Shown here piece by piece: positions 33,568-50,045 of a stretch of DNA of 64,000 bases. A program made the position numbers and the translations under genes. How positions within the stretch are numbered: the stretch's first letter is position 1; the number at the start of each line of letters is the position of its first letter. The DNA comes from Candidatus Levyibacteriota bacterium (GTDB taxonomy: Bacteria; Patescibacteriota; Microgenomatia; Levybacterales; UBA12049). Location: the NCBI GenBank assembly GCA_963716145.1, contig OY970292.1, forward strand, positions 76,104 to 140,103, read 5' to 3'. The notes beneath the pieces were generated by a model. That model was given only the letters and a program-made list of their open reading frames with translations. It was not told the DNA's origin and made no database searches.

Positions 33568-33597
33568 GAATTAAGAATTAAGAAGCAAGAATTAAGG
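33568..33597. repeat. Tandem heptanucleotide array (GAATTAA)x4, one variant gaagcaa, in frame in the frameshifted GT4
   Basis: units 33568-33574, 33575-33581, 33582-33588 (variant), 33589-33595, then gg; encodes LELRIKKQELR. Confidence 0.9.
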
Positions 33598-33680
33598 CGA
33601 ATTTTGTTTATTGGTGATTTTAAGTGGTTGCAAAATAGAGACGCTGTGAAGTTTATAGTTGAGGAGATATGGCCCAAAAT

Positions 33681-33715
33681 AATTTCAAATTTCAAATTTC
33701 AAATTTCAAATTCTC
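33681..33715. repeat. Tandem heptanucleotide array (AATTTCA)x4 plus variant aattctc, in frame in the same GT4
   Basis: units 33681-33687, 33688-33694, 33695-33701, 33702-33708, 33709-33715 (variant); encodes ISNFKFQISNSQ. Confidence 0.9.
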
Positions 33716-34140
33716 AATTAAAATTGTGGATTGTTGGGAGAGAGATTCCGGACTCTATAAAAAACTTAACAAATGATCAAGATATCATTTTTGATGAAGA
33801 AGGATCAGCTAGGCCAACGGAAGAATTATTCCAGGAGGCTGATATTCTTTTTGGCTCCGATCAGAATAGGCGGAGGGACTAGTTATAAAATACTTGAGAG
33901 CATGAGCAGTGGTACGCCCGTCGTAACTACAGAACTTAGCGCAAGTGTAATTGATGCAAAGGATAGCATAAATATTATGGTAGGCAAAAATGCTCAAGAG
34001 CTATCTGAAAAAACATTAAAGCTTCTTTCTGATAAAAGACTTTATCAAGCAGTGGCAAAAAATGGGCGGAGCTTGATTGAAGAAAAATACACATGGAGAA
34101 AAATCGCCAATGAGCTGGATAAAGTTTATAAAAGTCTGAT

Positions 34141-35058
34141 ATGAACAAAGTTGATTTATCAATTGTTATCCTAAATTACAACACCAAGCAGTTGACACTT
34201 GATGCTATTTCATCAATTGAAAAGAACTATCCGGATGAAGTTAAATCTGAGAAATACGAAGTGATAGTTGCGGATAATGCTTCACCGGATGACTCGCATA
34301 AAGCGTTCGAAGAGTATAAAAAGAAAAGTAAAATTAAATCTTTTCACGTCGTTGATAACGGTGGGAATATTGGGTTCTCCAAAGGCAATAATAACGGCTT
34401 AAAATATTCTCAGGGACGGTATGTTTTATTTCTGAATCCCGACACGGTAGTTTATCCCAAAACATTGGACAAAATGGTTGAGTTTATGGATACACATCTT
34501 GGCGCCGGAGCTGCAACCTGCAAAGTCGAGATCCCTGCGGGTGGAATTGATGATGCATCTCATCGGGGATTCCCAACTCCCTGGAACGCCTTAACTCACT
34601 TTTCAGGTTTTGAAAAGTTATTTCCAAAAAGTCGAATATTCGCAGGATATACTCAAGGATTTAAAGATATGAATAGCGTGCATGAGGTTGATGCCATATC
34701 GGGAGCTTTCTTATTTGTTCGGCGGGAAGTTGGGGAGCAGATCGGCTGGTGGGATGAAGAATACTTTTTTTATGGAGAAGATATCCAGTTTTGTTACAAC
34801 ATTAAAAAAGCAGGATATAAAATCTATTATGTGCCAGATGTCAGCATTCTTCACTACGGAGGCGTGTCAAGCGGTATTAAAAAGCAATCCCACCACATAA
34901 CCACAGCAGATAAAGAGCACCGAAAAATTATGCAGAGTCATCGTTTTGCCGCGATGCGGATTTTTTACAAAAAAAATTATCAGAAAAGATACCCCAAGTT
35001 TGTTAGTTGGATTGTAAACAAAGGAATTGACAGCCTACATAAAAAGCATTCGTCTTAG
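34141..35058 (+). CDS. GT2 family glycosyltransferase
   Basis: LSIVILNYNTKQLT...VADNASPDDS. Confidence 0.7.
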   Translation: MNKVDLSIVILNYNTKQLTLDAISSIEKNYPDEVKSEKYEVIVADNASPDDSHKAFEEYKKKSKIKSFHVVDNGGNIGFSKGNNNGLKYSQGRYVLFLNPDTVVYPKTLDKMVEFMDTHLGAGAATCKVEIPAGGIDDASHRGFPTPWNALTHFSGFEKLFPKSRIFAGYTQGFKDMNSVHEVDAISGAFLFVRREVGEQIGWWDEEYFFYGEDIQFCYNIKKAGYKIYYVPDVSILHYGGVSSGIKKQSHHITTADKEHRKIMQSHRFAAMRIFYKKNYQKRYPKFVSWIVNKGIDSLHKKHSS

Positions 35059-35079
35059 CCTCTGTGTTATACTTAAAGC

Positions 35080-36195
35080 ATGAAAATTGGCATTGATGCA
35101 AGGCTTTGGAGCGAAACTGGAGTTGGGAGATATATCCGCAATTTGGTAAAGGAACTTCAAGTATTGGACAAGAAGAATGAGTATGTTTTGTTTGTCAGAA
35201 AGGCAGATTACGATAAGGTTAAATTTCAAATTTCAAATGATAAATTCCATATCAGAATTGCGGATATCCGTTGGCACACAATTGACGAGCAGCTGAAGCT
35301 TCCTCATATACTAGATAAAGAAAATGTGGACTTGGTTCATTTTCCTTATTTTTCTGTTCCTGTGGGTTACAAAAAGCCTTTCGTTATGACAATTCATGAT
35401 TTGATTCTTAATCATTTCCCGACAGGTAAAGCCTCCAAGCTCCCTCTGTATTTATATCAATTAAAGCGTCTTGGCTATGATTATGTAGTAAAAAAAGCAG
35501 TGAAGAGAGCGCAAAAAATTATCGTTCCCCTCAATGCTGTCAGAGATGATTTGGTAGCAACACTTGGAGTCAAAGAAGAAAAAGTTGCTGTAACGTATGA
35601 AGGCTTTGATGAAAAAATAATCAGTAAAGATAAGTCATCGATTGATGATACTAAATATTTTTTGTATGTTGGGAACGCATATCCACACAAGAATATCGAA
35701 AGACTAATAAAAGCCTTTTCCCTTTTTAGAAAAGAACAAAATGCAGAAGTACATTTGCTGTTGGTTGGCAAGGACGACTATTTTTATAAAAAACTTTCAG
35801 AAAAAATAAGGAAAGAAAATTATTCTGGAATTTTGATAAGGAACAATGTAAAAGATTATGAGCTTGCAAATTATTATAATAACGCTATAGCGCTCATTTC
35901 CCCCTCTCTTATGGAAGGATTTGGACTTCCGGTGCTTGAAGCAATGGCATCATCATGTGCCGTACTTGCGTCAGATATTCCCTCACTCAGAGAAGTGTGC
36001 GAAGGTGCGGCGTTATACTTTAATCCGCATTCTATTACAGAGATAAAAGATAAAATGAATCTTATTTTTAATACTGACAAAGAAACTCTAGAAAAATTAA
36101 TAAATAAAGGATTAGATCGTTCTCAGCAATTTTCCTGGAAAAAAATGGCAGAACAAACACTGAAAGTTTATGAAAGTTGCTTTAGTTTACGATAG
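35080..36195 (+). CDS. GT4 family glycosyltransferase; carries short AAATTTC x2 array
   Basis: MKIGIDARLW N-term and SPSLMEGFGLPVLEAMASSCAVLASDIPSLREV C-term. Confidence 0.7.
   Translation: MKIGIDARLWSETGVGRYIRNLVKELQVLDKKNEYVLFVRKADYDKVKFQISNDKFHIRIADIRWHTIDEQLKLPHILDKENVDLVHFPYFSVPVGYKKPFVMTIHDLILNHFPTGKASKLPLYLYQLKRLGYDYVVKKAVKRAQKIIVPLNAVRDDLVATLGVKEEKVAVTYEGFDEKIISKDKSSIDDTKYFLYVGNAYPHKNIERLIKAFSLFRKEQNAEVHLLLVGKDDYFYKKLSEKIRKENYSGILIRNNVKDYELANYYNNAIALISPSLMEGFGLPVLEAMASSCAVLASDIPSLREVCEGAALYFNPHSITEIKDKMNLIFNTDKETLEKLINKGLDRSQQFSWKKMAEQTLKVYESCFSLR
35221..35238. repeat. Short tandem array (AAATTTC)x2 plus partial, in frame in GT4 35080..36195
   Basis: units 35221-35227, 35228-35234, then aaatgat; encodes KFQISND. 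Confidence 0.8.
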
Positions 36196-37258
36196 GATCA
36201 ATAAATGGGGCGGTGCTGAGAGGCTTCTCCTTGCGCTTCATGAATTATTCCCTGAAGCGTCTCTTTATACATCCGTTTATGATAAGGAAAAAGCTCTTTG
36301 GGCAGAAGTTTTTGATATTAGAACTTCTTTTCTGCAAAACATTCCATTTGCCTCAACAAATCATGAACTTCTTGCAGCGTTTATGCCTTTGGCATTTGAA
36401 AGTTTTACTTTTGACGAGTATGATTTGGTGATCTCACTAACTAGTGAGGCAGCAAAAGGAATTATCACAAAACCCGGTACAATACATATTTGTTATTGCC
36501 TAACCCCTACCCGGTATTTGTGGAGCGGTTATGACGAATACTTCAAGAGTGATAGTCTCAAAATTATGTCAAAACCTATTGTTTCAGGTCTTCGCAGGTG
36601 GGATATAGCAGCGAGCAGACGGCCAGATGCCTTTATCGCGATATCCAAGGAAGTTCAAAAAAGAATTAAAAAATATTATGGAAGAGAATCTGATTTGGTT
36701 TATCCGCCAGTGACATTGAGCGCAAGAGCGCAAGAGCGCAAGAGCGCAACGAAGGAAGGAGAATATTTTCTAGTTGTGTCACGTTTGTCAAAGTTTACGG
36801 GATATAAGAGAGTTGACTTGGTTATTGAAGCTGTCAATGAACTTAAAATTCCTTTGAAAATTATTGGGGATGGAAGCTTGAGAAAAGAACTGGAACAAAT
36901 GGCAGGACCGACAATCGAATTTATAGGAAATGTTAATGATGATGAATTGGGTGGATATTACAAAAACTGCAAAGCATTGATCTTTCCGGGGAAAGAGGAC
37001 TTGGGGTTGGTAATGATTGAGGCACAAATGTTTGGAAAACCGGTTATTGCTTACAAGGAAGGTGGAGCTGTAGAATTGGTGATTGAGGCCAAGACGGGAA
37101 TATTTTTCCAGCAGCAAACAAAAAAATCATTAATTGAAGCGCTACAGAAATTTGAAAAAACCAAATTTGATTCAAAAGCCTGCAGAAAAAATGCAGAAAA
37201 ATTTAGCATGGATAAATTTAAGCAAAATTTCTTGTCGGTTGTGAATAAATTGATTTGA
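36170..37258 (+). CDS. GT4 family glycosyltransferase; carries GAGCGCAA x4 array
   Basis: MKVALVYDRINKWGGAERLL N-term, FPGKEDLGLVMIEAQMFGKPVIAYKEGG C-term; 26-nt overlap with upstream gene. Confidence 0.65.
   Translation: MKVALVYDRINKWGGAERLLLALHELFPEASLYTSVYDKEKALWAEVFDIRTSFLQNIPFASTNHELLAAFMPLAFESFTFDEYDLVISLTSEAAKGIITKPGTIHICYCLTPTRYLWSGYDEYFKSDSLKIMSKPIVSGLRRWDIAASRRPDAFIAISKEVQKRIKKYYGRESDLVYPPVTLSARAQERKSATKEGEYFLVVSRLSKFTGYKRVDLVIEAVNELKIPLKIIGDGSLRKELEQMAGPTIEFIGNVNDDELGGYYKNCKALIFPGKEDLGLVMIEAQMFGKPVIAYKEGGAVELVIEAKTGIFFQQQTKKSLIEALQKFEKTKFDSKACRKNAEKFSMDKFKQNFLSVVNKLI
36718..36749. repeat. Perfect tandem octanucleotide array (GAGCGCAA)x4, in frame in GT4 36170..37258
   Basis: units 36718-36725, 36726-36733, 36734-36741, 36742-36749; encodes SARAQERKSAT. 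Confidence 0.9.
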
Positions 37259-37276
37259 TATTATAATGAAGATTGT

Positions 37277-38359
37277 ATGAAAATTGTAGTTTTTGCCGGA
37301 GGAGTCGGTACAAGGCTCTGGCCGCTTTCAAGAAAAAATACTCCCAAGCAGTTTGGAAAAATTATAGGGAATGAGTCTACGCTACAACAAACCGTAAGCC
37401 GGTTAACTGTTGAATTTAAATCAGAAGATATTTATATAGCAACAGGCAAGCAGTATAAGGATGTAGTTATGAAGCAGCTTCCCAATATCCCAAAGGAAAA
37501 TTTTATTTTTGAACCAATGATGCGGGACGTTGGGCCTGCGATTGGCTTGTCGTCCTTTATTCTTGAGAAGAAATTCCCAAATGAACCCATCGCAATTCTT
37601 TGGAGTGACCATATGGTCAAAAACGAAGAAGCGTTCAGGCATGTCCTGCGTCTTGCCGAGAAGAAGATTGTTTCCAAAGAAACTGAATTTGTCTTTATAG
37701 GACAAAAACCCCGTTTTCCCAATCAAAACTGCGGCTGGATCCAGCTCGGTGAAGAAAGTGAAAGCAGTAATGGTGCAAGTGTTTATGAATTTAAAAGACT
37801 TTGTTATCGGCCAAAGCCAGAGGAGGCTGATAAATTTTTTAATGACAAGAACTATGTTTGGAATTTGGGATATTTTGTGACTACACCCAAATATCTTACA
37901 ACACTTTTCAAAAAGTATACTCCTGATATGTCAAAGCTTCTATCAGAAGTTCAAAATGATTACGGATCAGACAAATATGAAAAAACACTTGAAGATATTT
38001 ATCCAAAACTTGAAAAAATCAGTTTTGATGATGCTATTCTGGTCAAACTTTCTCCAAACAACCTTAAAGTTATTGCGACCGATCTTGGCTGGAGCGATGT
38101 GGGGGCATGGGACGCATTGAAGGAGGCCCTGGAAACACATAAAGAGGAAAATGTAACCCGGGGAAATATAGAATTGGAAGATACAAAGGACGTTTTAATG
38201 TTCAATTATGAAGAAAAGCTATGTATCGGTATTGATTTGTCGGAAATGGTTGTAATTAATACAGAGGATGTTTTGCTAGTGTGTCCCAAAGGTTCAATTC
38301 CTAAAATAAAAAAGTTCGTTGAAAATTTAACCGGAACTGACCACGAGCATTTAATATAA
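37277..38359 (+). CDS. Mannose-1-phosphate guanylyltransferase (GDP-mannose pyrophosphorylase)
   Basis: MKIVVFAGGVGTRLWPLSRKNTPKQF nucleotidyl-transferase signature. Confidence 0.6.
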   Translation: MKIVVFAGGVGTRLWPLSRKNTPKQFGKIIGNESTLQQTVSRLTVEFKSEDIYIATGKQYKDVVMKQLPNIPKENFIFEPMMRDVGPAIGLSSFILEKKFPNEPIAILWSDHMVKNEEAFRHVLRLAEKKIVSKETEFVFIGQKPRFPNQNCGWIQLGEESESSNGASVYEFKRLCYRPKPEEADKFFNDKNYVWNLGYFVTTPKYLTTLFKKYTPDMSKLLSEVQNDYGSDKYEKTLEDIYPKLEKISFDDAILVKLSPNNLKVIATDLGWSDVGAWDALKEALETHKEENVTRGNIELEDTKDVLMFNYEEKLCIGIDLSEMVVINTEDVLLVCPKGSIPKIKKFVENLTGTDHEHLI

Positions 38360-38362
38360 ATA

Positions 38363-39031
38363 ATGCCAAACAAAGAGACACAAAAAAATACATGGTACGA
38401 TTTTGCCAAACGAGTATTGGATATTTTTTTTTCTGCAATTATTCTTATGTTCTTCTCCCCAATTATTGTGATTGTTGCCATATTAATTAAAATAGAAACA
38501 CCTGGCCCCATTCTTGCTGATACTCCTGAGAGGGTAGGAAAAGATGGTGAATTGTTTTATCCCTATAAATTCAGATCAATGATTGTTAACGCCTACCAGC
38601 TTTTAAAGACAGACCCTAAGCTCAGGAAGGCCTATGAGGAGCAGCAAAAAGGGGGAAACTATAAAATAAAAAATGATCCAAGGATTACAAAAGTCGGTAA
38701 ATTTATAAGAAAGCATTCGCTTGATGAAATTCCTCAGCTCTTAAATGTGCTTAAGGGTGAAATGAGCCTGGTTGGTCCTCGTCCATACTATCCTGAGGAG
38801 CTTGAGAAGCAGCAGCAAAGATATCCCCAAACCAAGAATTCGGTTAAAGAGGTGTTGTCGGTAAAACCGGGGATTACGGGCCGTTGGCAGGTGTCGGGCA
38901 GAAGCGAAGTGAATTTTGACAAGAGAATCCAAATGGATGCAACTTATGCAAAGCGGCGTTCTGTTTTTTATGATCTCTTGATTATAGCTAAGACCCCATG
39001 GGCGATGATTTCAGGCCGCGGTGCCCTCTAA
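38363..39031 (+). CDS. Initiating sugar phosphotransferase (undecaprenyl-phosphate glycosyl-1-phosphate transferase, small Bac_transf type)
   Basis: KRVLDIFFS...YKFRSM...DEIPQLLNVLKGEMSLVGPRP motifs of the bacterial sugar transferase family. Confidence 0.7.
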   Translation: MPNKETQKNTWYDFAKRVLDIFFSAIILMFFSPIIVIVAILIKIETPGPILADTPERVGKDGELFYPYKFRSMIVNAYQLLKTDPKLRKAYEEQQKGGNYKIKNDPRITKVGKFIRKHSLDEIPQLLNVLKGEMSLVGPRPYYPEELEKQQQRYPQTKNSVKEVLSVKPGITGRWQVSGRSEVNFDKRIQMDATYAKRRSVFYDLLIIAKTPWAMISGRGAL

Positions 39032-39071
39032 GTGCTGTTTTATGAAACATATTTACCTTACCCTTGTCAAG

Positions 39072-39110
39072 TTGACATTTTTGGGCAAATTTTCGTAAGA
39101 TATATAAATG
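39072..39110 (+). promoter_or_regulatory. Candidate sigma70-type promoter TTGACA-18-TAAGAT ending at the ATG of the 39108 ORF (possible leaderless transcript)
   Basis: ttgaca at 39072-39077, taagat at 39096-39101, atg at 39108; motif tttttggg...atatataaatgg shared with the mraZ upstream region. Confidence 0.35.
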
Positions 39111-41132: not shown

Positions 41133-41137
41133 ATCTT

Positions 41138-41701: not shown

Positions 41702-41738
41702 ATCACAACGCCTTTCTCCTTTTTGCTATAATACCCAT

Positions 41739-43091: not shown

Positions 43092-43107
43092 CCACGTCAA
43101 ACGCGGC

Positions 43108-43137
43108 TTGACAGCAGGAATTAAATTAAAGTATTAT
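43108..43137 (+). promoter_or_regulatory. Candidate promoter TTGACA-18-TATTAT upstream of 43146 ORF
   Basis: ttgaca 43108-43113, tattat 43132-43137, ATG at 43146. Confidence 0.4.
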
Positions 43138-43145
43138 TTAACAAG

Positions 43146-43646
43146 ATGAATTGGTTCAAAAAAAGAAATAATCAAATTATTGCGGGAGTAGTAATTGTTC
43201 TACTTCTTGTAAGTGGATTTTTAATTTTTGGCGGTAAATCCAAATCAAAAGCTCCAGAAACTATCCAGGATCAGTCAGTTCAAAATATTTCGGCTGAAGA
43301 GCTAGGTCTAACGATAACAGCAAAACCTGACAATAAGGCAGTAAAATTTGCTATCTCAAAAGCATCAAGTATAAAATCTATTGAGTATGAAGTTACGTAC
43401 GAAGCTGATTCCACAGCAGCTGAGCAAAGCGAGGGTGGGGAACCTAGGGTGCAGAGAGGGATCACAGGAGACGCAAAGATAGATTCCGGAAAAGGCAGTT
43501 ATGAATCCGATTGGCTCGATCTGGGAAGTTGTTCAAAAAATGTTTGCCGATACGATTCAGGGGTTGAGTCGGTTAACCTTACTCTAAAAATTGTCAAAAA
43601 TGATGGAAAAATTTATCAAGCGGAAAAATCCCTCGACTTAAAGTAA
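43146..43646 (+). CDS. Hypothetical protein with N-terminal membrane anchor
   Basis: 166 aa; TM helix IIAGVVIVLLLVSGFLIFG followed by soluble domain; no family recognised. Confidence 0.35.
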   Translation: MNWFKKRNNQIIAGVVIVLLLVSGFLIFGGKSKSKAPETIQDQSVQNISAEELGLTITAKPDNKAVKFAISKASSIKSIEYEVTYEADSTAAEQSEGGEPRVQRGITGDAKIDSGKGSYESDWLDLGSCSKNVCRYDSGVESVNLTLKIVKNDGKIYQAEKSLDLK

Positions 43647-43744
43647 ATCTTCATAATAAAACTCTCTTACGCATTTCTTACAATTAGAACGCTACATTTT
43701 GTAGTTACTCTTGCTCCTGTACACTACGACATCCCAAAATCATG

Positions 43745-43821
43745 TTGACAAGGTGAATTTTTGGGTCCAGAATATATAAATAGGTAAAAGTAGGAAAAAG
43801 TAGGTCGTCTGCAAAGCAGAC
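43745..43821 (+). promoter_or_regulatory. mraZ upstream control region: TTGACA box, three TAGG direct repeats at 10-bp phasing (MraZ-box-like) and a 6-bp-stem hairpin
   Basis: ttgaca 43745-43750; aaaTAGG/taaaagTAGG/aaaaagTAGG at 43775-43804; gtctgcaaagcagac inverted repeat 43807-43821; ATG of mraZ at 43865. Confidence 0.45.
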
Positions 43822-43864
43822 TTCATAGTTTAGAAATTAGAAATAAAATTAGAGAGGCAGGAAT

Positions 43865-44302
43865 ATGTTAATTGGACAGTATGAAAGTAAAATTGGTGAA
43901 AAACATCAAGCAGCATTACCTAAAAAATTCAGGGAGATTCTTGGTGACCGATTAATTATTACAAAGGGGTTTGAAAATTGCTTGATTGTAGTGTCAGTCG
44001 ACAATTGGAAAACTCTTCTGGAAGGAACGGAGGGAAAACCGTTTACGAGTAAAGCAACGCGTGAATTGCAAAGGTTTTTATTGGGAAACGCGACAGACAT
44101 AACGCTTGACAGTAAAGGAAGATTTGTAATACCTGAATATTTAAGAGAATTCGCAAGCATAAAAACTGAAGTAGTCATAGCCGGAATTGAGAGATTTATC
44201 GAGATCTGGGACAAAGGTAAATGGGAAGATCAGCAAAAGGAATTGAGTAAAAACATTGAATCAATCGCAGAAAGGCTGTCCGAAGGAAAGAGTGAATCAT
44301 GA
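43865..44302 (+). CDS. mraZ: Transcriptional regulator MraZ
   Basis: MLIGQYESKIGEKHQAALPKKFREIL and second repeat RFVIPEYLREFA typical of duplicated MraZ/SpoVT-AbrB-like halves; first gene of dcw cluster. Confidence 0.8.
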   Translation: MLIGQYESKIGEKHQAALPKKFREILGDRLIITKGFENCLIVVSVDNWKTLLEGTEGKPFTSKATRELQRFLLGNATDITLDSKGRFVIPEYLREFASIKTEVVIAGIERFIEIWDKGKWEDQQKELSKNIESIAERLSEGKSES

Positions 44303-44323
44303 ATAAAGAATTAAGAATTAAGG
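44301..44323. repeat. GAATTAA-type array (gaataaa gaattaa gaattaa gg) starting inside and just after the mraZ stop codon, intergenic mraZ-rsmH
   Basis: mraZ TGA at 44300-44302; units 44301-44307, 44308-44314, 44315-44321. Confidence 0.85.
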
Positions 44324-44371
44324 GAAATTAAACCATAATTCATACTTCATAATTCTTGATTCTAAAAAAAG

Positions 44372-45271
44372 ATGGGTAATACATATCACACGACAGTACT
44401 TTTAGAAGAAACAGTAGATGGTTTAAATGTTAAAGAAGGGAAGAAATATATCGACGCTACATTGGGAGGAGGAGGACACAGTTTTGAGATTTTGAAGCGC
44501 GGAGGGAGAGTATTGGGTTTGGATGCAGATCAAGATGCGCTTGATTTTGTTCAGGAAGAATTAAGAATTAAGAATCAAGAATTAAGGTTTGAAAAGAAAA
44601 ATTTAACCTTAGCAAAGGGAAATTTTAAGGACATTGATAAAATTGCAACAGAATTTGGATTTGAAAAAGTTTTTGGCATTGTTTTTGATCTTGGGGTCTC
44701 GAGCCACCAGCTAGACACTGTGGAAAGAGGGTTTAGTTTTCAAAGCACTGGCCCTTTAGACATGCGGATGGATCGAGATCTTAGCGTCAAAGCTGCGGAT
44801 TTGGTAAATATCCTAACGAAAGGAGAGCTTTATGAGTTATTTAATAAACTGGGTGAGGAGCATTTTGCTCACGCCATATCAGAAAGTATTGTTAGCAGTC
44901 GCCGAGTAAGTCCAATTAAGACGACATCAGAATTGGTAGAAATTGTAAGAAGCGCCGTGCCAAGACTGAAACATAATATTAATCCGGCGACTAAAGTATT
45001 TCAAGCGCTGAGAATTGCGATAAACGATGAGTTTAATAACTTGAAGGAAGCTCTACCAAAAGCACTGGAGTTATTGGATGCACATGGAAGATTAGCCGTA
45101 ATCGCGTTTCATTCACTTGAGGATAGAATAATAAAAAATCAATTTAAAGAATTTGCTGAAATGGGACAGGGAGTCATTATTACAAAAAAACCGATTAGTC
45201 CAAGTTTTGCTGAAATTGAAGGAAACAGGCGCTCAAGAAGCGCAAAATTAAGAATTATTGAAAAGATATAA
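44372..45271 (+). CDS. rsmH: 16S rRNA (cytosine1402-N4)-methyltransferase RsmH; contains in-frame GAATTAA x4 insertion
   Basis: YHTTVLLEETVDGL...DATLGGGGHS...FDLGVSSHQLD...RGFSF signature; follows mraZ. Confidence 0.85.
   Translation: MGNTYHTTVLLEETVDGLNVKEGKKYIDATLGGGGHSFEILKRGGRVLGLDADQDALDFVQEELRIKNQELRFEKKNLTLAKGNFKDIDKIATEFGFEKVFGIVFDLGVSSHQLDTVERGFSFQSTGPLDMRMDRDLSVKAADLVNILTKGELYELFNKLGEEHFAHAISESIVSSRRVSPIKTTSELVEIVRSAVPRLKHNINPATKVFQALRIAINDEFNNLKEALPKALELLDAHGRLAVIAFHSLEDRIIKNQFKEFAEMGQGVIITKKPISPSFAEIEGNRRSRSAKLRIIEKI
44558..44587. repeat. Tandem heptanucleotide array (GAATTAA)x4, one variant gaatcaa, in frame inside rsmH (encodes EELRIKNQELR, apparent ~10-aa loop insertion)
   Basis: units 44558-44564, 44565-44571, 44572-44578 (variant), 44579-44585, then gg. 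Confidence 0.9.
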
Positions 45272-45283
45272 ACTTTTAAAAAT

Positions 45284-45568
45284 ATGAGAAGACCGAGTCA
45301 ATTAATTTTTCTTATTTTTCTGGTTATAGTTGCCTTGGGCATTGTGCGGGTTACTATTGAAAATAGTATTTCAACAACCGGGATTGAATTGGTGAGGCTT
45401 CAAGATAAGTTGTCTGCATATAAAAAAGACAATGAACTGCTTTCGGAAAAATATTTGGAGAACTCATCCCTCCTTAGTATTTCGGCCAAAGCCCGACAAA
45501 AAGGATTCGTGGATTCAAAGAATCAGGTTTATTTATCAGCCCCGTTGCCATTGGCACTCAAGCAATAA
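45284..45568 (+). CDS. ftsL: Small membrane protein, FtsL-like cell division protein
   Basis: 94 aa, single N-terminal TM helix then coiled-coil-like region; positioned between rsmH and ftsI as in dcw clusters. Confidence 0.4.
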   Translation: MRRPSQLIFLIFLVIVALGIVRVTIENSISTTGIELVRLQDKLSAYKKDNELLSEKYLENSSLLSISAKARQKGFVDSKNQVYLSAPLPLALKQ

Positions 45569-45591
45569 GAGCTTTTTGATACAATTAATGT

Positions 45592-47283
45592 ATGAGCTTA
45601 CGTTACAGAATTAGTTTATTGCTTTTTATCATATTTTTTTTCCTAATTACGGCTAGGCTTTTTTATTGGCAAATAGTGCGGGCATCTGAGCTTCAGTTGC
45701 TCGGACAGGCTCAATACGGAAGGCAAATTAACTTACCTGCAACACGCGGGGAAATAAAAACATCCGACAATTTTACAATCGTTGCCAATAAACTCTCTTT
45801 CATTGCTTTTGCCAATCCGAAAGAAATAAAAGATAAGGTAGGTTTGGCTGAAAAATTGGGCTCTCTTCTTGATACTGATCCCGCTTCAATCAGCGCACAG
45901 CTTGCGCTTAACCGTTATTGGGTGCCGCTTAAATCAGATGTTGTAGTTGAAGAAAAGGAGAAAATAGAACCATTAAAATTGCCCGGAGTTGGGTTTCAGG
46001 AGGGAACAACACGCTTTTACCCGGAGGCATCATTGTCAGCAAAGCTTTTGGGTTTCGTGGGCAGAGATGAAAATGGGGGAGATAAGGGGTATTTTGGTCT
46101 GGAGGGATATTATGACAGGCAGTTAAGAGGAAAAGCCGGTCAGGCAGTAGTGATACACGACGCGACAGGCCGCCCAATACTTTCCAAGCTGGATGGAAAT
46201 ACCGGAAAAACTGATGGACGGAGTTTAGTTTTAAATATTGACCGTACGATTCAGTTTATGCTTGACAATACGCTTAAAGATGGAATCGAACAATATGGTG
46301 CCTCAGGCGGTATGGCAGCAGTAATGAATCCCAAAACTGGAGGAATTATTGCAATGTCATCTTTTCCGACTTATGACCCTAGGCATTATGAGGAGTATTC
46401 GGATGATCTTTATAGAAACCCATTCCTCTCCGATACTTATGAGCCCGGATCTACATTTAAGCCTCTTATTATGGCAGCAGCAATTGACGCCAATCTTATA
46501 AAGCCCGAGACAAAGTGTCCTATTTGTGCAGGTCCTGTTTCAATTGGGGGTTATGAGATAGAGACGTGGAATAAGAAATATAATGCCAATGAGTCCATGA
46601 CTGATGTTATTGTGCACTCTGATAATACAGGGATGGTATTTGTGGGAAAATCTTTGGGCTTAGACCGTATGGTCTCATATCTCGAAAAGTTTGGCATAGG
46701 AGATTTGACGGGAATTGATCTTCAGGGAGAGGTGGTTCCCAACGTACGGGAAAAACAGAACTGGTATCCAATTGATCTGGCAACAGCGAGTTTTGGGCAA
46801 GGAATTACAGTAACACCGATTGAGCTTCTCACTGCTTTTTCTTCAATTGCAAACGAGGGAAAAAGAATGGAGCCGCATGTTGTTTCCAAAATTATCACAC
46901 CTGAAGGCGACACTATCCAAATTCCGCCCAAAGTTTTGGGGCAGCCGGTATCAGCGCGGGCTGCTCATGTGATGACTGAAATGATGGTGAATGCAGTTGA
47001 TAATGGTGAGGCAAAATTTGCAAAAGCTTTAACCAAAACTAATGGTTATAGAATTGCCGGTAAAACGGGGACTGCTCAAATTCCGGTTGCCGGGCACTAT
47101 GACCCAACCAAAACAATTGCCTCCTTCATCGGTTTTGCGCCGGCCGATGATCCCAAATTTCTGATGTTGGTTATTATTGATCGGCCAACTAGTTCAATTT
47201 ATGGAGCTGAAACAGCAGCGCCGGTCTTTTTCAAAGTTGCGAAAAATATATTAACTTACTACGGCATCCCGCCGAGTGAGTAA
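45592..47283 (+). CDS. ftsI: Penicillin-binding protein (FtsI/PBP2-type transpeptidase)
   Basis: N-terminal TM, PBP dimerisation region, transpeptidase motifs STFKP (SxxK), SDN-like HSDNTG, KTGTA. Confidence 0.8.
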   Translation: MSLRYRISLLLFIIFFFLITARLFYWQIVRASELQLLGQAQYGRQINLPATRGEIKTSDNFTIVANKLSFIAFANPKEIKDKVGLAEKLGSLLDTDPASISAQLALNRYWVPLKSDVVVEEKEKIEPLKLPGVGFQEGTTRFYPEASLSAKLLGFVGRDENGGDKGYFGLEGYYDRQLRGKAGQAVVIHDATGRPILSKLDGNTGKTDGRSLVLNIDRTIQFMLDNTLKDGIEQYGASGGMAAVMNPKTGGIIAMSSFPTYDPRHYEEYSDDLYRNPFLSDTYEPGSTFKPLIMAAAIDANLIKPETKCPICAGPVSIGGYEIETWNKKYNANESMTDVIVHSDNTGMVFVGKSLGLDRMVSYLEKFGIGDLTGIDLQGEVVPNVREKQNWYPIDLATASFGQGITVTPIELLTAFSSIANEGKRMEPHVVSKIITPEGDTIQIPPKVLGQPVSARAAHVMTEMMVNAVDNGEAKFAKALTKTNGYRIAGKTGTAQIPVAGHYDPTKTIASFIGFAPADDPKFLMLVIIDRPTSSIYGAETAAPVFFKVAKNILTYYGIPPSE

Positions 47284-47300
47284 TTAAATGAATTTAAATA

Positions 47301-48356
47301 TTAGTTATTTCTAAATCTATAGCCTGTCCCTATTACTGTTTCTATAATATCTATCCCGAGCTTACTGCGTATCCGTCCTATGTGAATATCTACGGCTTTT
47401 TCCTTAGCCTCACCAGCCATTACACTGTCTTGTAACTGAGAACGGCTTAATATTAATCCCGGATTATCATGCAGTCTCAAAATAACTGTGTGCTCAGCTA
47501 TTGTAAGATTGCCTTCGTCATTATTTTGTTTAAACAGTAAGCTATAACGGTAAATTTTGGTATTATTTGGTAGTACTATTGCTTCAGCTGCTATATCATC
47601 AACTTCTCCTAATCTGAAACCAAGTCCCAGCTCAGTAATAATGGTTATGGGATTTTCAGGATCCGGTTCAATTTTGTCACGCAGTTCACCTATACGAACG
47701 TCAATAGTATTCATACTTACAGAATCGAAATATTCTGGAGACCAAGCTTTTCTACCAATCTCCTCACGCGATACTACTCTGCCAACATTGTCAGATAATA
47801 CCATTAGTACATCATGCTCTTTTGGAGGAAGGGTAAATTTTTCACCACGAACAAACAATTCGCGGCTATGGCGGAAGAATTTAATTTCACCAGGTAATTT
47901 TACTGCATCTGATTCATCATGTTCACCTAGTCTATATCCTAAGCCTTTTTCCGTAAAAATAATTGTCGGACTTTGCGGATCCGGTTCAATTTTGTCACGC
48001 AGTTTTTTTATAGCCACCCCTAAAGAACTTTTAGACATAAAACCCTCAGGCCAGGCTACTTCAAGCAGCCTGTCTCTGCTTACAGCCCTACCTCTTCTTC
48101 CTAGTAGTTCCCTAAGCAAGCTGATATCTGTTTTTGATAATTTTTTTCTTTCACCATCTACATAAGCTGTTCCTTCAAGGGGAACATAGCTGACTCTATC
48201 TTTTAAAAGTTCAATTCTTGCCGGTTTTCCCTGTTCTGACTGGGGTTCACCCCTTGAAAAATCCACGATTAATAGTGGTTCGCTTCTATGTGTTGACGTA
48301 GGTATAATTCCTGATTCGACATTTGGCGTTACTCTGGTCACTCGTTCAAAATACAT
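47301..48356 (-). CDS. Standalone DNA-binding protein with three tandem OmpR/PhoB-type winged-helix (Trans_reg_C) domains, no receiver domain
   Basis: Three repeats of the pattern ...L...E..LL..L....G..VSR..L....W........L...I..LR.K......P..I.T..G.GYRL (residues ~60-145, ~160-250, ~270-350). Confidence 0.55.
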   Translation of the reverse strand: MYFERVTRVTPNVESGIIPTSTHRSEPLLIVDFSRGEPQSEQGKPARIELLKDRVSYVPLEGTAYVDGERKKLSKTDISLLRELLGRRGRAVSRDRLLEVAWPEGFMSKSSLGVAIKKLRDKIEPDPQSPTIIFTEKGLGYRLGEHDESDAVKLPGEIKFFRHSRELFVRGEKFTLPPKEHDVLMVLSDNVGRVVSREEIGRKAWSPEYFDSVSMNTIDVRIGELRDKIEPDPENPITIITELGLGFRLGEVDDIAAEAIVLPNNTKIYRYSLLFKQNNDEGNLTIAEHTVILRLHDNPGLILSRSQLQDSVMAGEAKEKAVDIHIGRIRSKLGIDIIETVIGTGYRFRNN

Positions 48357-48396
48357 AAGAGGGATTTTATCCTATAACCAATTCTAAATCAATATT

Positions 48397-48723
48397 TTAG
48401 ATGATTTTTGATCCGTTGGGGACTTTGGATTTGGGCTTGAGCGGCTGAAGTTTGTCACCGGTAGCAAGAAGCATTCCTTGTGACTCTTCCCCCATAAGTT
48501 TTCGGGGTTCAAGGTTTATAACAAATATAAATTGTTTATTTATCAAGTCAGCCGGTTTGTGATGTAGCTTAATTCCTGAGAGTATATTGCGCGTTCCTTC
48601 ATCTCCAAAATTTACGGTTAATCTCAATAATTTATCTGATCCTTCTTTTTCTACACATTCCATAACGGTTCCGACACGCAAATCAAGTTTGGCAAAATCA
48701 TCAAATTGTACAATTGGTTTCAT
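48397..48723 (-). CDS. tRNA-binding domain protein (CsaA/Myf-like, EMAP-type OB fold)
   Basis: FAKLDLRVGTV...EKEGSDKLL...VNFGDE...ILSGI...INLEPRKLMGEESQGMLLA motif of the tRNA_bind domain. Confidence 0.6.
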   Translation of the reverse strand: MKPIVQFDDFAKLDLRVGTVMECVEKEGSDKLLRLTVNFGDEGTRNILSGIKLHHKPADLINKQFIFVINLEPRKLMGEESQGMLLATGDKLQPLKPKSKVPNGSKII

Positions 48724-48765
48724 TTAGATATTTTAACACAAAATTTAGAATTATGTCCTTGATTT

Positions 48766-50043
48766 TTGCTATACTATCGGTACAGCAATATGTGGCAAAA
48801 AACAAAAAATCAATATCATCTGGGGCAAGCGCTACTTGCAAATATTATTTACATGTTTCCATCCAGAAAACTTAAAATAATTGGAGTCACGGGAACAGAT
48901 GGAAAAACAACTACTGCAACCCTCATTCATCATATTTTAATAAACTCGGGACATAAAGCTTCTCTTATCACCACGGTCGGCGCCGTAATAAATGATAAAT
49001 TTTCGGATATTGGCTTTCATGTTACAACTCCCGGGCGGTTCGCGCTGCAGTCGTATCTGAAAAGATCAAAAAAACAAGGCTCTGAATATATTGTGCTTGA
49101 ACTGACTTCTCATGCGCTTGATCAATACCGTGCTTTTGGAATCCCAATTGAGGTTGGTGTTCTGACCAATGTCAGTAACGAGCATCTGGATTATCATAAA
49201 ACTTATGAAAAGTATGTGGCTGCGAAATTAAAATTGCTCAAAAAGGCAAAAATTGCAATTGTAAATAAGGACGATAAGTCGTATAAGTTTGCAAAAGTCT
49301 CTTTAAAAAATAAGAGAATAATAACTTATGGAATGAAAAAAGACGCTGATGTTAATCCGCACAATTTTCCATTCAAAACAAAATTAATTGGCAAGTTTAA
49401 TCTCTATAATTCTCTAGCTGCTATTTCAGTGCTTCAGCAAATGCACGTAGCTGAAGAAGATATAAAGAAGGGTATTTTAAGTTTTATGCTACCGGCAGGC
49501 AGACAGGAGATAATTTATGATAAAGAATTTACAGTAATTAATGATTTTGCTCATACGCCAAATTCTTTTTTAAGCGTTCTTCCTGAAATAAAGAAACTCA
49601 CCAAACGCAAGCTAATTCATGTTTTTGGAGCTGCGGGAAAAAGAGATAAATATAAAAGAGCGGAAATGGGTAAAATATCCTCGGACTATGCGGATGTTAT
49701 TATTCTCACAGCTGAAGATCCGAGAAACGAAATAATTGAGGAGATTAACAGGCAGATAATGTCGGGAATTACAGATGCCGAGTTTGGGATCGTAAATTAC
49801 GAAGCACTCAAAAATAGAGAAGTGTATCTGGACACAAAAAACAAATATGTTATCTCAATTCCTGACAGGAGAGACGCGATTAATTTTGCGATTGAAATTG
49901 TCCAAAAGGGTGATTTAGTTTTACTAACCGGCAAGGGTCATGAAAAATCTATAGACTATGGAAAAGGGGAGGAGCCATGGAATGAGAAGGAAACGGCATG
50001 GCAAGCAATTGAAAGGAATAAAGAATCAAGAATCAAGAATTAA
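48766..50043 (+). CDS. murE: Mur ligase family protein, MurE-like (P-loop GVTGTDGKTTT, DNPR-like EDPR motif) lacking the N-terminal UDP-binding domain; probable ATG start at 48790; stop codon lies inside a GAATTAA-type array
   Basis: Central and C-terminal Mur ligase domains present; P-loop only ~40 residues from the N-terminus (about 110 in E. coli MurE); TAEDPRNE motif. Confidence 0.55.
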   Translation: MLYYRYSNMWQKTKNQYHLGQALLANIIYMFPSRKLKIIGVTGTDGKTTTATLIHHILINSGHKASLITTVGAVINDKFSDIGFHVTTPGRFALQSYLKRSKKQGSEYIVLELTSHALDQYRAFGIPIEVGVLTNVSNEHLDYHKTYEKYVAAKLKLLKKAKIAIVNKDDKSYKFAKVSLKNKRIITYGMKKDADVNPHNFPFKTKLIGKFNLYNSLAAISVLQQMHVAEEDIKKGILSFMLPAGRQEIIYDKEFTVINDFAHTPNSFLSVLPEIKKLTKRKLIHVFGAAGKRDKYKRAEMGKISSDYADVIILTAEDPRNEIIEEINRQIMSGITDAEFGIVNYEALKNREVYLDTKNKYVISIPDRRDAINFAIEIVQKGDLVLLTGKGHEKSIDYGKGEEPWNEKETAWQAIERNKESRIKN

Positions 50044-50045
50044 GG
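50016..50045. repeat. GAATTAA-type array (gaataaa gaatcaa gaatcaa gaattaa gg) forming the last codons and TAA stop of the murE-like gene
   Basis: units 50016-50022, 50023-50029, 50030-50036, 50037-50043; stop TAA 50041-50043 is inside the last unit. Confidence 0.9.

What the first reader, a model, noticed from the sequence alone, without database searches (positions are those of the whole stretch)
33568..50045. GAATTAA heptamer arrays recur in a GT4 gene, in rsmH, just downstream of the mraZ stop and across the murE stop codon
Four arrays of the form [gaataaa][gaattaa/gaatcaa]n gg occur at 33568-33597 (GT4), 44301-44323 (mraZ stop/intergenic), 44558-44587 (inside rsmH, where alignment with canonical RsmH suggests a ~10-aa loop insertion EELRIKNQEL) and 50016-50045 (C-terminus and TAA stop of the murE-like gene). 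Each ends with ...gaattaaGG. At murE the stop codon is inside the last repeat unit, so a change of one unit would extend or shorten the C-terminal tail. Housekeeping dcw genes are not expected phase-variation targets, which favours a dispersed-insertion explanation.
Basis: partly seen in the sequence, partly recalled or inferred. Interest (0 to 1): 0.7.

Follow-up and report, generated by a model that had tools for sequence, protein, structure and literature searches.

The report
Seven-base repeat arrays inside housekeeping genes
The GAATTAA arrays are real, and they belong to a known but unexplained class of seven-base tandem repeats, here sitting in tolerant protein loops and gene junctions of a Levybacteria (CPR) genome; the rsmH site has held such an array across much of the lineage, so it is not a recent insertion.

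Summary
The window holds six arrays of the form [GAATNAA]x4+GG. Five are on the + strand. The sixth is inverted and forms a hairpin with the array at the mraZ stop. There are also six other arrays of about 30 nt (AAATTTC, ATTGGGA and the octamer GAGCGCAA) in glycosyltransferase genes. Period 7 is specifically over-represented, with a distinct peak near 4.5 copies.

Orthologues show that these are not species-specific insertions. The rsmH site carries a heptamer array in most Levybacteria, with at least eight different units that differ by one to three bases copied into every unit. Half of 120 RsmH relatives show the matching 7-residue periodicity, against 0.8% of control windows. Arrays replace sequence of equal length, decay by substitution, and come and go at the mraZ and murE junctions. 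Near-identical strains of a related species differ by exactly four units at one intergenic array and by whole hairpin-cassette swaps.

In-ORF copies carry exactly the substitutions that remove the in-frame TAA. The same units lie between genes, next to start codons, in unrelated phages.

Verdict: this is a CPR member of the heptanucleotide long-SSR class (cyanobacterial STRR, Xanthomonas GGGAATC, TAACTGA repeats). It is best explained by slippage or conversion turnover at tolerant sites. Function is unproven. I found no evidence for phase variation.

The parts
33568..33597 (+). GAATTAA-type array (4 units + GG) in the inter-domain linker of a GT4 glycosyltransferase. It encodes ELRIKKQELR. Unit 3 is GAAGCAA.
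44294..44323 (+). GAATCAT GAATAAA GAATTAA GAATTAA GG. This is the 5' arm of the mraZ-rsmH hairpin. The mraZ TGA stop lies at 44300-44302, inside the array.
44324..44332 (+). 9-nt loop (GAAATTAAA) between the two inverted arrays.
44333..44363 (-). Inverted copy of the array. Its reverse complement reads A GAATCAA GAATTAT GAAGTAT GAATTAT GG. It is the 3' arm of the hairpin and ends 8 nt before the rsmH ATG. Positions 44350-44366 are also 16/17 complementary to the rsmH array.
44558..44587 (+). GAATTAA GAATTAA GAATCAA GAATTAA GG in rsmH, codons 63-72 (ELRIKNQELR). This is the conserved heptamer-array site of Levybacteria RsmH.
50016..50045 (+). GAATAAA GAATCAA GAATCAA GAATTAA GG. It encodes the murE C-terminal tail, and the TAA stop is the last three bases of unit 4. 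The terminal TTAAGG acts as an SD-like element 4 nt before the ATG of the next gene (50050).
12891..12922 (+). Perfect AAATTTC x4.6 (32 nt) in a YfhO-like membrane protein gene.
15713..15743 (+). AATTTCA x4.4 (one mismatch) in a GT2 gene. It takes the place of the helix after the DDGSTD motif, with only +3 aa relative to a paralogue.
18203..18232 (+). Perfect ATTGGGA (=GAATTGG) x4.3 in a PMT-like GT-C gene. It lies inside an 18-aa loop that is absent from the adjacent paralogue.
33681..33717 (+). AATTTCA x5 (37 nt) in the same GT4 gene as the 33568 array. It is in frame and does not cause the ORF break.
35221..35238 (+). AAATTTC x2.6, followed by about 21 nt of decayed units. The orthologous site in L228 has a perfect x5.3 array of the same total length.
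36718..36749 (+). Octamer GAGCGCAA x4.0 (32 nt) in the GT4 inter-domain linker. The orthologous site in L228 holds a heptamer array (AATAAGC x5.7).

Best explanation
The GAATTAA arrays are members of a family of short heptanucleotide tandem repeats, about 4.3 units or 30 nt long. They are the Levybacteria/CPR counterpart of the long simple sequence repeats known as cyanobacterial STRR, Xanthomonas GGGAATC and Beggiatoaceae TAACTGA repeats.

Shown:
- Period 7 is specifically enriched, with a discrete class near 31 nt.
- Arrays sit only at gene junctions and in variable loops or linkers.
- The same sites stay repetitive across species while the unit changes in all copies at once (concerted evolution).
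- Arrays replace sequence rather than simply adding to it. They decay by substitution and are gained or lost between relatives.
- Intergenic copies change copy number and are swapped between near-identical strains.
- In-ORF copies deviate from the unit exactly where a TAA would fall in frame.

Inferred:
- Slipped-strand misalignment and short-patch conversion during replication or repair create, homogenise and occasionally copy these arrays.
- Purifying selection on the host genes confines them to tolerant positions and fixes their length there.
- At junctions the (GAATTAA)n sequence supplies a stop in all three frames plus an A/U-rich leader ending in an SD-like AAGG, or one arm of a hairpin. 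It may be retained for that reason. In ORFs the arrays are most likely passengers.
For: - Period-7 excess and a bimodal copy-number distribution. The ~4.5-copy class has 11 arrays in 285 kb of CPR loci and 6 in 155 kb of Omnitrophota/NC10 loci, against 1 in 1.85 Mb of other loci. Other periods decay monotonically.
- rsmH site. DNA arrays with the units GAATYAA, AAGTTAA, GATTWAA, AGAATTC, AAAATCA, AAATTKC, AAGTATC and AAATTCA lie at the same codons. At least 3 of 5 consecutive i/i+7 identities occur in 50% of 120 RsmH relatives against 0.8% of 840 control windows. Periods 5, 6, 8 and 9 give 2.5-7%.
- Concerted change. L009 reads GAATTCA x3 where the window reads GAATTAA/GAATCAA, in the same codon phase.
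- Replacement and decay.
- The junction arrays at the mraZ and murE ends are present, different or absent in relatives.
- Strain-level change. L005 and L084 are 99.4-99.8% identical, yet differ by a 28-nt (4-unit) indel in a GATTAAA array and by two cassette swaps at heptamer features.
- Stop-removing substitutions.
- Identical units are shared by 17% of within-locus array pairs against 0.7% of between-locus pairs.
- Phage contigs have (GAATTAA)n or (AAATTTC)n arrays between genes, abutting or within about 20 nt of the downstream start codon. In L172, L182 and L184 an obvious SD lies in between.
- Literature. Heptamers are the most abundant long SSR class. The mode is four units in Xanthomonas, and inverted pairs occur there. 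TAACTGA repeats overlap stop codons and sit upstream of start codons (PMC4692102, PMC4679880).
Against: - Plain stepwise slippage predicts a monotonic length distribution, not a peak near 31 nt.
- It does not by itself explain why unrelated sites share one unit, or why all six GAATNAA arrays end in GG.
- A +/-1-unit slip in a coding array is a frameshift, so homogenisation without a length change needs a conversion-like step that has not been demonstrated.
- Within the 71-72% identity subclade the rsmH array is more conserved than its flanks. It is 30/30 identical in L003, and the only two changes in L228 are synonymous. That could mean constraint rather than neutrality.
- No length variant was seen in the window's own species. 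Only one sample is available.
Confidence: 0.6

Rival explanations
1. The arrays are recognition sites for a trans-acting factor that reads about four heptads. This could be a DNA-binding protein that binds contiguous 7-bp heptads (as the omega ribbon-helix-helix repressor does), or an RNA-binding protein or the ribosome, such as S1, Csp or CsrA. Such a factor would couple expression of the glycan genes and the dcw (cell-division and cell-wall) genes.
For: - The length class is discrete at about 4.5 units, and the octamer array also totals 32 nt.
- One unit is shared by several sites per genome.
- All six copies end in GG.
- The rsmH array is conserved 30/30 between genomes with 72% RsmH identity.
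- In phages the arrays abut or lie within about 20 nt of the downstream start codon, with an SD in between in L172, L182 and L184.
- MacGregor proposed such binders for TAACTGA repeats.
Against: - Units differ between sites of one genome. In L002, rsmH has AAGTTAA while the intergenic array is GAATTAA. L005 has GATTWAA, AATTGAG and ATAAGGG. The window has four different units.
- Junction arrays are absent from the closest relative, L226.
- Arrays decay without replacement.
- No candidate binder is conserved next to them. The three-domain wHTH protein has a homologue in L004 (29%), and L226 has a shorter Trans_reg_C gene at the same position that I did not compare. None turned up in L005, L009, L227 or L228.
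Confidence: 0.15
2. A discrete cassette of about 30 nt is copied between sites by a templated process. This could be ectopic short-patch conversion, or a product made from an oligonucleotide or cDNA template. It would overwrite existing sequence of the same length. In effect it would be a very small mobile element.
For: - All six copies share the 30-31-nt [GAATNAA]4GG architecture.
- Arrays replace sequence rather than inserting into it.
- L005 and L084 differ by exactly four units, and hairpin cassettes are swapped whole in 99.5%-identical backgrounds.
- There is a length peak near 31 nt.
- Identical 28-mers occur in unrelated phages of GC 0.26-0.62.
Against: - There are no conserved flanks or target-site duplications.
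- Arbitrary control heptamers also form 4-unit arrays in viral contigs (5 and 28 contigs), so identity across taxa does not require transfer.
- Stepwise unit drift at one site fits evolution in place better.
- Within the dcw-flanking stretches available, the only mobile-element gene seen near the arrays is a DDE transposase pair in L226. No reverse transcriptase or transposase was found in the window.
Confidence: 0.15
3. The arrays are phase-variable contingency loci. Gain or loss of one unit would switch the GT4, rsmH or murE tail on or off.
For: - Heptamer SSRs drive phase variation of HMW adhesins in Haemophilus influenzae (papers listed).
- Several arrays lie in glycosyltransferase genes.
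- Intergenic arrays vary in copy number between strains.
Against: - The GAATNAA arrays are interrupted.
- All arrays that could be checked are identical in the independent assembly.
- Every rsmH gene seen in about 30 DNA loci is in frame.
- The GT4 ORF break maps to a homopolymer, not to an array.
Confidence: 0.05
4. The repeat is selected at the protein level. A heptad-periodic amphipathic helix such as ELRIKNQELR would be what matters, and the DNA periodicity would be a by-product.
For: L228 keeps ELRIKNQELR while two synonymous changes break the DNA repeat. The peptide is conserved across the subclade with 71-72% identity.
Against: - The same DNA unit occurs in non-coding positions and across stop codons.
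- The peptides at the rsmH site are unrelated between clades (ELRIKNQ, KFKIQNS, DLRFKIK, NFKFQIS, KIKNQKS) and share only the 21-nt periodicity.
- Perfect DNA repeats are not required to encode a 10-residue helix.
Confidence: 0.04

Closest known systems
Heptanucleotide long simple sequence repeats (Mrazek et al. 2007, as summarised in PMC4679880 and PMC4692102), including cyanobacterial STRR sequences
   Same: Tandem 7-nt units. Period 7 is over-represented relative to other periods. One unit is dispersed over many loci of a genome. Function is unknown, and polymerase slippage has been proposed as the cause.
   Different: Those are described as mainly intergenic, and units that are multiples of three are the ones expected in coding regions. 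Here 8 of the 12 arrays lie in frame inside ORFs, including the conserved enzyme RsmH, and one site is conserved across a candidate phylum.
Xanthomonas GGGAATC and Nostoc GGGGA(C/T)T repeats (Rehm et al. 2015, PMC4692102)
   Same: Most arrays have four units. Some occur as inverted pairs that can form stem-loops. Length and sequence vary between close relatives at the same intergenic positions. The window also has a GGGAATT-type array (18203-18232).
   Different: Those are G-rich, can form quadruplexes, and are intergenic. The GAATTAA and AAATTTC units cannot form G4 structures.
TAACTGA direct repeats of Beggiatoaceae, Cyanobacteria and Bacteroidetes (MacGregor 2015, PMC4679880)
   Same: Two to six units. 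They often overlap the stop codon of the upstream gene and lie just before the next start codon. The forward orientation has stops in all three frames. A few copies lie inside ORFs at peripheral positions, including the end of MurG.
   Different: The unit is different. In BOGUAY they often replace a recognisable SD, whereas here the array ends in an SD-like AAGG. Conservation of one coding site across species, with unit turnover, was not reported there.
SSR contingency loci, for example the 7-bp repeats upstream of the H. influenzae hmw genes
   Same: Heptamer tandem repeats whose copy number changes by slippage.
   Different: Those are long, perfect and hypervariable between isolates, and they act as on/off or volume switches. 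The window's arrays are short, partly interrupted and invariant in the data available.
Heptad operators of the omega repressor of pSM19035 (from my own knowledge; not tested here)
   Same: Contiguous 7-bp units in direct or inverted orientation. About four are needed for stable cooperative binding.
   Different: Those lie in promoter regions of a plasmid next to the gene of the ribbon-helix-helix protein. No ribbon-helix-helix gene or promoter context was found here.

Membership tests
Heptanucleotide long SSR / STRR-type dispersed repeats | Head-to-tail tandem copies of a 7-nt unit | tested here: met
   TRF and my own scan find 4.1-4.6 copies at each site.
Heptanucleotide long SSR / STRR-type dispersed repeats | Period 7 over-represented relative to neighbouring periods | tested here: met
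   In the window there are 7 arrays of period 7, against 0-2 for periods 5, 6 and 8-12. In CPR loci the ~4.5-copy class exists only for period 7.
Heptanucleotide long SSR / STRR-type dispersed repeats | The same unit at several unlinked loci of one genome | tested here: met
   There are six GAATNAA sites and four AAATTTC sites. Identical units occur in 17% of within-locus pairs against 0.7% of between-locus pairs.
Heptanucleotide long SSR / STRR-type dispersed repeats | Predominantly intergenic location | tested here: not met
   Eight of the 12 arrays in the window are inside ORFs. Only one 64-kb window was examined, and it is almost entirely coding.
Heptanucleotide long SSR / STRR-type dispersed repeats | Copy-number or sequence variation between close relatives | tested here: inconclusive
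   Seen in a related species (L005 versus L084: a 28-nt indel and cassette swaps). Not seen in the window's species, for which only one sample exists.
TAACTGA-type junction repeats (MacGregor 2015) | The array overlaps the upstream stop codon and lies within a few nucleotides of the downstream start | tested here: met
   The murE-end array contains the TAA, and the next ATG is 4 nt after the array. The mraZ TGA lies inside the 44294 array.
TAACTGA-type junction repeats (MacGregor 2015) | The unit is TAACTGA | tested here: not met
   The units here are GAATTAA and AAATTTC. TAACTGA-related units were seen only in other loci (L228 mraZ end; L207, L210, L218).
SSR phase-variation (contingency) locus | Length polymorphism that shifts the reading frame or promoter spacing | tested here: not met
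   Array lengths are identical in the independent assembly. The GT4 frameshift is at a T homopolymer. All rsmH orthologues are in frame.
REP/REPIN or MITE-like intergenic hairpin elements | Dispersed imperfect palindromes that form hairpins | tested here: inconclusive
   The mraZ-rsmH pair folds (-17.3 kcal/mol, z = -3.1). Analogous hairpins exist in L002, L005 and L084, but not in L003 or L004. The four in-ORF GAATNAA copies are single and not palindromic.
REP/REPIN or MITE-like intergenic hairpin elements | An associated RAYT/IS200-type transposase, or terminal inverted repeats with a target-site duplication | tested here: not met
   Pfam scans of the window's ORFs found no transposase. There are no conserved flanks. 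The rest of the genome was not available.
MraZ operator boxes | Direct repeats with about 10-nt spacing upstream of mraZ | tested here: not met
   The heptamer arrays have 7-nt spacing and lie downstream of mraZ. A separate 10-nt-period repeat at 43775-43804, following a promoter-like site, fits the operator instead.
Known RNA families (Rfam) | A match at the gathering threshold | tested here: not met
   There are 0 matches in the whole window.
Heptad operator bound by the omega ribbon-helix-helix (RHH) repressor | A cognate ribbon-helix-helix protein and a promoter location | not testable with these tools
   The Pfam scans of the window listed no ribbon-helix-helix family. Binding cannot be tested computationally.

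The most novel reading that the evidence does not exclude
Heptamer arrays of about 31 nt are a length-defined element shared by CPR bacteria, Omnitrophota and many phages. On this reading they are written over existing sequence at tolerant sites by a templated or conversion mechanism, or are read by a conserved factor that measures four heptads. The rsmH site would then be a maintained site rather than a tolerated microsatellite. This would give the 35-year-old puzzle of heptanucleotide repeats a mechanistic handle.
Probability: 0.15. Interest if true: 0.75.

Novelty: new member of a known kind. Interest (0 to 1): 0.45.

Why it matters
Heptanucleotide tandem repeats have been known since the cyanobacterial STRR sequences, and heptamers are the most abundant long SSR class in bacteria. 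Even so, neither their origin nor their function is understood.

This case adds three things:
- Such arrays can live in frame inside conserved housekeeping enzymes.
- One codon-level site in RsmH has stayed repetitive across a candidate phylum while its unit turned over in concert.
- Array length clusters tightly near 31 nt in CPR, Omnitrophota and phage sequences.

These are quantitative constraints that any model of slippage, conversion or factor binding has to meet. In practice, the arrays also break k=31 assemblies, and they could be mistaken for insertions or phase-variation sites in annotations of CPR genomes.

Tried and rejected
- Assembly artefact. Rejected, because independent Illumina-based Logan contigs reproduce the arrays. 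The two perfect 32-nt AAATTTC arrays only break k=31 contigs.
- Heptamer-driven frameshift in the GT4 gene. Rejected, because the break is a T5/T4 homopolymer difference.
- Unit abundance as the cause of unit sharing. Rejected, because GAATTAA and AAATTTC rank only about 240-1000 among 7-mers outside the arrays.
- MraZ operator. Rejected on spacing and position.
- Known RNA family. None was found.
- The three-domain OmpR-type wHTH protein (47301-48356, - strand) as the array binder. Not pursued, because a homologue was found in L004 (29% identity) and possibly L226, but not in L005, L009, L227 or L228.
- Strand asymmetry of hairpin stability, used to distinguish an RNA role from a DNA role. 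Uninformative for the window, because the hairpin has no G-U pairs.
- GAATTAA as a special cross-taxon unit. Rejected, because arbitrary control heptamers also form 4-unit arrays in viral contigs.
- Length variants among proteins at least 90% identical. None could be assessed, because the clusters are singletons.
- Intrinsic terminator at the mraZ-rsmH hairpin. No U-tract follows it, and the terminator scan found none.

Full report
**1. Observation**

Shuffled sequence does not reproduce them. There are 8 matches to GAATTAAGAATTAAGG (up to 2 mismatches) against 0.22 expected, and 9 matches to a second pattern against 0.03 expected.

The array after mraZ is really 30 nt long (44294-44323: GAATCAT GAATAAA GAATTAA GAATTAA GG). 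The TGA stop of mraZ lies inside it.

A sixth copy lies inverted at 44333-44363. Its reverse complement reads A GAATCAA GAATTAT GAAGTAT GAATTAT GG. The two copies form a hairpin of -17.3 kcal/mol (z = -3.1) that ends 8 nt before the rsmH start codon.

All six copies share the architecture [GAATNAA]x4 followed by GG.

Pfam confirms the host genes: MraZ, RsmH, a Mur ligase and a GT4 glycosyltransferase.

**2. The arrays are part of something larger in the window**

Tandem Repeats Finder and my own scan find further arrays of 30-37 nt:
- AAATTTC at 12891 (YfhO-like gene), 15713 (GT2), 33681 and 35221 (GT4 genes).
- ATTGGGA (=GAATTGG) at 18203 (PMT-like gene).
- The octamer GAGCGCAA x4 at 36718 (GT4).

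Period 7 gives 7 arrays. Periods 5, 6 and 8-12 give 0-2 each.

Neither GAATTAA nor AAATTTC is an especially common 7-mer outside the arrays, ranking about 240-1000. Recurrence of one unit at several sites is therefore not a composition effect.

**3. The arrays are not an artefact, and they do not cause the GT4 frameshift**

The window comes from a 1.14-Mb contig. Three short-read Logan contigs of run ERR11593400 are 99.96-99.99% identical to it. They reproduce the arrays at 15713, 18203, 35221, 36718, 44294, 44333, 44558 and 50016 exactly. The k=31 contigs end inside the two perfect 32-nt AAATTTC arrays, as expected for such repeats.

The split of the GT4 gene (32935-33882 and 33773-34144) is caused by a T5 versus T4 difference near 33848, not by a heptamer array.

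**4. Orthologues**

The organism is a Candidatus Levybacteria (CPR/Microgenomates) bacterium.

*The rsmH site.* In RsmH, the CPR sequences carry about 7 extra residues between the DxD motif and the GNF motif, relative to Bacillus and Omnitrophota. This holds whether or not they have an array. So the loop is old.

At the DNA level the same codons hold a heptamer array in most relatives, with different units:

| Locus | Unit at the rsmH site |
|---|---|
| L003 | identical 30-mer to the window |
| L006 | GAATYAA |
| L002 | AAGTTAA |
| L005, L084, L085, L086 | GATTWAA |
| L009, L090 | AGAATTC |
| L093 | AAAATCA |
| L113 | AAATTKC |
| L226 | AAATTCA (perfect x4.7) |
| L011 (Curtissbacteria) | AAGTATC |

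Where the codon phase can be followed (L009), the change from GAATTAA to GAATTCA is present in every unit. That is concerted evolution.

A protein-level census supports this. Of 120 RsmH relatives (61-100% identity), 50% have at least 3 of 5 consecutive i/i+7 identities at this site. The figure is 0.8% for 840 control windows in the same proteins, and 2.5-7% for periods 5, 6, 8 and 9 at the same site.

The peptides fall into cyclic families: ELRIKNQ, KFKIQNS, DLRFKIK, NFKFQIS, NFQFPIS and KIKNQKS. NFKFQIS corresponds to AAATTTC, the unit that occupies glycosyltransferase genes in the window. Loops of 28-29 residues lack the periodicity, while loops of 32-37 residues have it.

*Other sites behave the same way.*
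- The murE 3' end has arrays in L004 (GAATTAA/GAAGTAG), L005 (AATTGAG) and L227 (GATTAAA x2.5), but none in L011, L226 or L228.
- The mraZ-rsmH spacer has heptamer hairpins in L002, L005 and L084. It has single arrays in L004, L227 and L228, and nothing in L003 or L226.
- L009 has an AGAATTC array inside murE, where the window has unrelated sequence of almost equal length (+1 aa).
- The GT2 array stands in for a helix of a paralogue (+3 aa).
- At the GT4 site 35221, L228 has a perfect x5.3 array. The window has x2.6 followed by about 21 nt of decayed units, with no length difference.
- At the GT4 site 36718, the window's octamer array corresponds to a heptamer array (AATAAGC) in L228.
- Only the PMT-like array lies in a clear insertion relative to a paralogue.

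**5. Dynamics between near-identical strains**

L005 and L084 are 99.4-99.8% identical over 20 kb (L085 is 99.94% identical to L005). Their large differences all lie at heptamer features:
- A GATTAAA array after ftsI has 6.4 units in one strain and 2.4 in the other, a difference of exactly 28 nt.
- The heptamer hairpin between mraZ and rsmH is replaced by a different one.
- The ftsL-ftsI spacer is replaced by a cassette that begins with a GATTAAA-like array.
- The rsmH arrays differ by one base that converts one unit variant into the other.

**6. Selection on the coding copies**

(GAATTAA)n contains a TAA in every reading frame once per 21 nt.
- In rsmH and in GT4, the unit whose TAA would be in frame reads GAATCAA or GAAGCAA.
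- In murE, unit 1 reads GAATAAA, and the in-frame TAA of unit 4 is the actual stop codon.
- In mraZ the stop falls in units 1-2.

So the deviations from the unit are the ones needed to keep the ORFs open.

In L228 the peptide ELRIKNQELR is kept, while two synonymous changes interrupt the DNA repeat.

**7. A discrete length class and wider distribution**

Across loci chosen only because they encode RsmH, period-7 arrays show a second peak at about 4.5 copies (about 31 nt). There are 11 such arrays in 285 kb of CPR loci, 6 in 155 kb of Omnitrophota/NC10 loci, and 1 in 1.85 Mb of other bacteria. No other period shows this peak.

Arrays in the same locus share an identical consensus unit in 17% of pairs, against 0.7% between loci.

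Exact (GAATTAA)4 occurs in 23 IMG/VR contigs and (AAATTTC)4 in 5, over a GC range of 0.26 to 0.62. The arrays lie between genes, abutting or within about 20 nt of the next start codon. In L172, L182 and L184 an obvious SD sits in between. The junctions are:
- between head-protease and decoration genes;
- between head-tail adaptor genes;
- before tail-fibre, tape-measure and excisionase genes.

Control heptamers chosen arbitrarily also give 5 and 28 contigs. One of them belongs to a family of CAGTRAT/TAACTGA-type hairpins that fill nearly every intergenic space of some GC-rich contigs. Four-unit heptamer arrays are thus a widespread phenomenon, and GAATTAA is not a special unit.

**8. What is known**

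Mrazek et al. (2007), as summarised in PMC4679880 and PMC4692102, found heptanucleotides to be the most abundant long SSR class in many prokaryotes, and suggested polymerase slippage as the cause.

Rehm et al. (PMC4692102) described about 185 GGGAATC arrays in Xanthomonas. Most have four units, some form inverted pairs, and they vary between close relatives.

MacGregor (PMC4679880) described TAACTGA repeats with these properties:
- they overlap upstream stop codons;
- they sit just before start codons;
- they have stops in all three frames;
- a few copies lie at the periphery of ORFs, including the end of MurG.

MacGregor proposed S1, Csp or CsrA as possible binders.

No later work on function turned up in the library.

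**9. Interpretation**

The arrays are a CPR member of this class. The evidence fits a microsatellite-like life cycle at tolerant positions:
- birth;
- homogenisation by slipped misalignment or short-patch conversion;
- occasional copy-number change;
- interruption and decay.

Purifying selection on the host genes would fix the length and remove stops.

At gene junctions the sequence offers a three-frame stop, an A/U-rich leader ending in an SD-like AAGG, or a hairpin arm. It may be retained for that reason.

Three observations are not explained by simple slippage: the 31-nt length peak, the sharing of one unit and of the terminal GG among unrelated sites, and homogenisation without a length change in coding DNA. 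These keep two rivals alive, a factor that reads four heptads and a copied 30-nt cassette.

Phase variation, protein-level selection alone, an MraZ operator, a known RNA family and an assembly artefact are each disfavoured by specific tests.

**10. Verdict**

The idea of a recent lineage-specific insertion in rsmH and murE does not hold.

Novelty: a new member of a known but unexplained kind. The conserved coding site, the concerted turnover of its unit and the length class are the new points.

Interest: 0.45.

Noticed in passing
window 43745-43804: A promoter-like site (TTGACA, 17-nt spacer, CAGAAT) is followed at once by three direct repeats with a 10-nt period (TATAAATAGG TAAAAGTAGG AAAAAGTAGG), 60 nt upstream of mraZ. 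This looks like a Pmra promoter with MraZ operator boxes. It is distinct from the heptamer arrays.
   Followed up: partly
window 47301-48356 (- strand): A 351-aa protein with three tandem OmpR/PhoB-type winged-helix (Trans_reg_C) domains and no receiver domain. It is encoded antisense inside the dcw cluster, between ftsI and murE. A homologue was found in L004 (29% identity), and L226 has a shorter Trans_reg_C gene at the same position that I did not compare.
   Followed up: partly
window ~33848 and ~38506: There are two homopolymer differences from the short-read contig L082. T5 versus T4 breaks the GT4 gene in the window. C4 versus C3 breaks the Bac_transf (initiating sugar transferase) gene in the Logan contig. 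These are either sequencing errors or real on/off heterogeneity in glycan genes.
   Followed up: partly
window 44350-44366 versus 44568-44584: The 3' arm of the mraZ-rsmH hairpin is 16/17 complementary to the rsmH array 200 nt downstream. The stretch just before the rsmH start codon could therefore pair with either array.
   Followed up: no
window 1-39100: About 39 kb of uninterrupted + strand glycan-biosynthesis genes. They include many GT2 and GT4 genes, at least five PMT-, YfhO- or PTPS-related GT-C paralogues, a Wzx-like flippase, a 1019-aa Wzy_C protein, a hexapeptide acyltransferase, an NDP-sugar pyrophosphorylase and Bac_transf.
   Followed up: partly
L005 9870-10010 and 11170-11268, versus L084: In genomes 99.4-99.8% identical, two intergenic cassettes (the mraZ-rsmH spacer and the ftsL-ftsI spacer) are replaced wholesale by unrelated sequence built from other heptamer repeats.
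   Followed up: partly
L207, L210, L218 (IMG/VR contigs, GC ~0.6): Many of the intergenic spaces sampled carry a long hairpin whose arms are arrays of CAGTRAT and ACTGRYY/TAACTGA heptamers around an AAGGCAAAA loop. In several the hairpin lies directly upstream of an SD and ATG. This architecture is much denser than that described for TAACTGA repeats.
   Followed up: partly
L057 55-140, 3890-4040, 13060-13200 (Omnitrophota): Nested hairpins whose arms combine two heptamer families (ATCGTTN and TTTACGG), repeated at three sites within 20 kb. Predicted folding energies are -35 to -56 kcal/mol.
   Followed up: partly
L002 5549-5568 and L044 ~17180-17225: GC-rich palindromes made of CCTG/CAGG tetramer repeats (CCTGCCTGCCGGCAGGCAGG) lie next to heptamer arrays in a Levybacteria contig and in an Omnitrophota contig.
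   Followed up: no
L003, L004, L005, L010 (record titles): Contigs that are syntenic with the Levybacteria dcw region, and that have 52-72% RsmH identity to the window, are deposited under Lysobacterales, Limnocylindrales or Gammaproteobacteria MAG names. These are probably binning or labelling errors.
   Followed up: no
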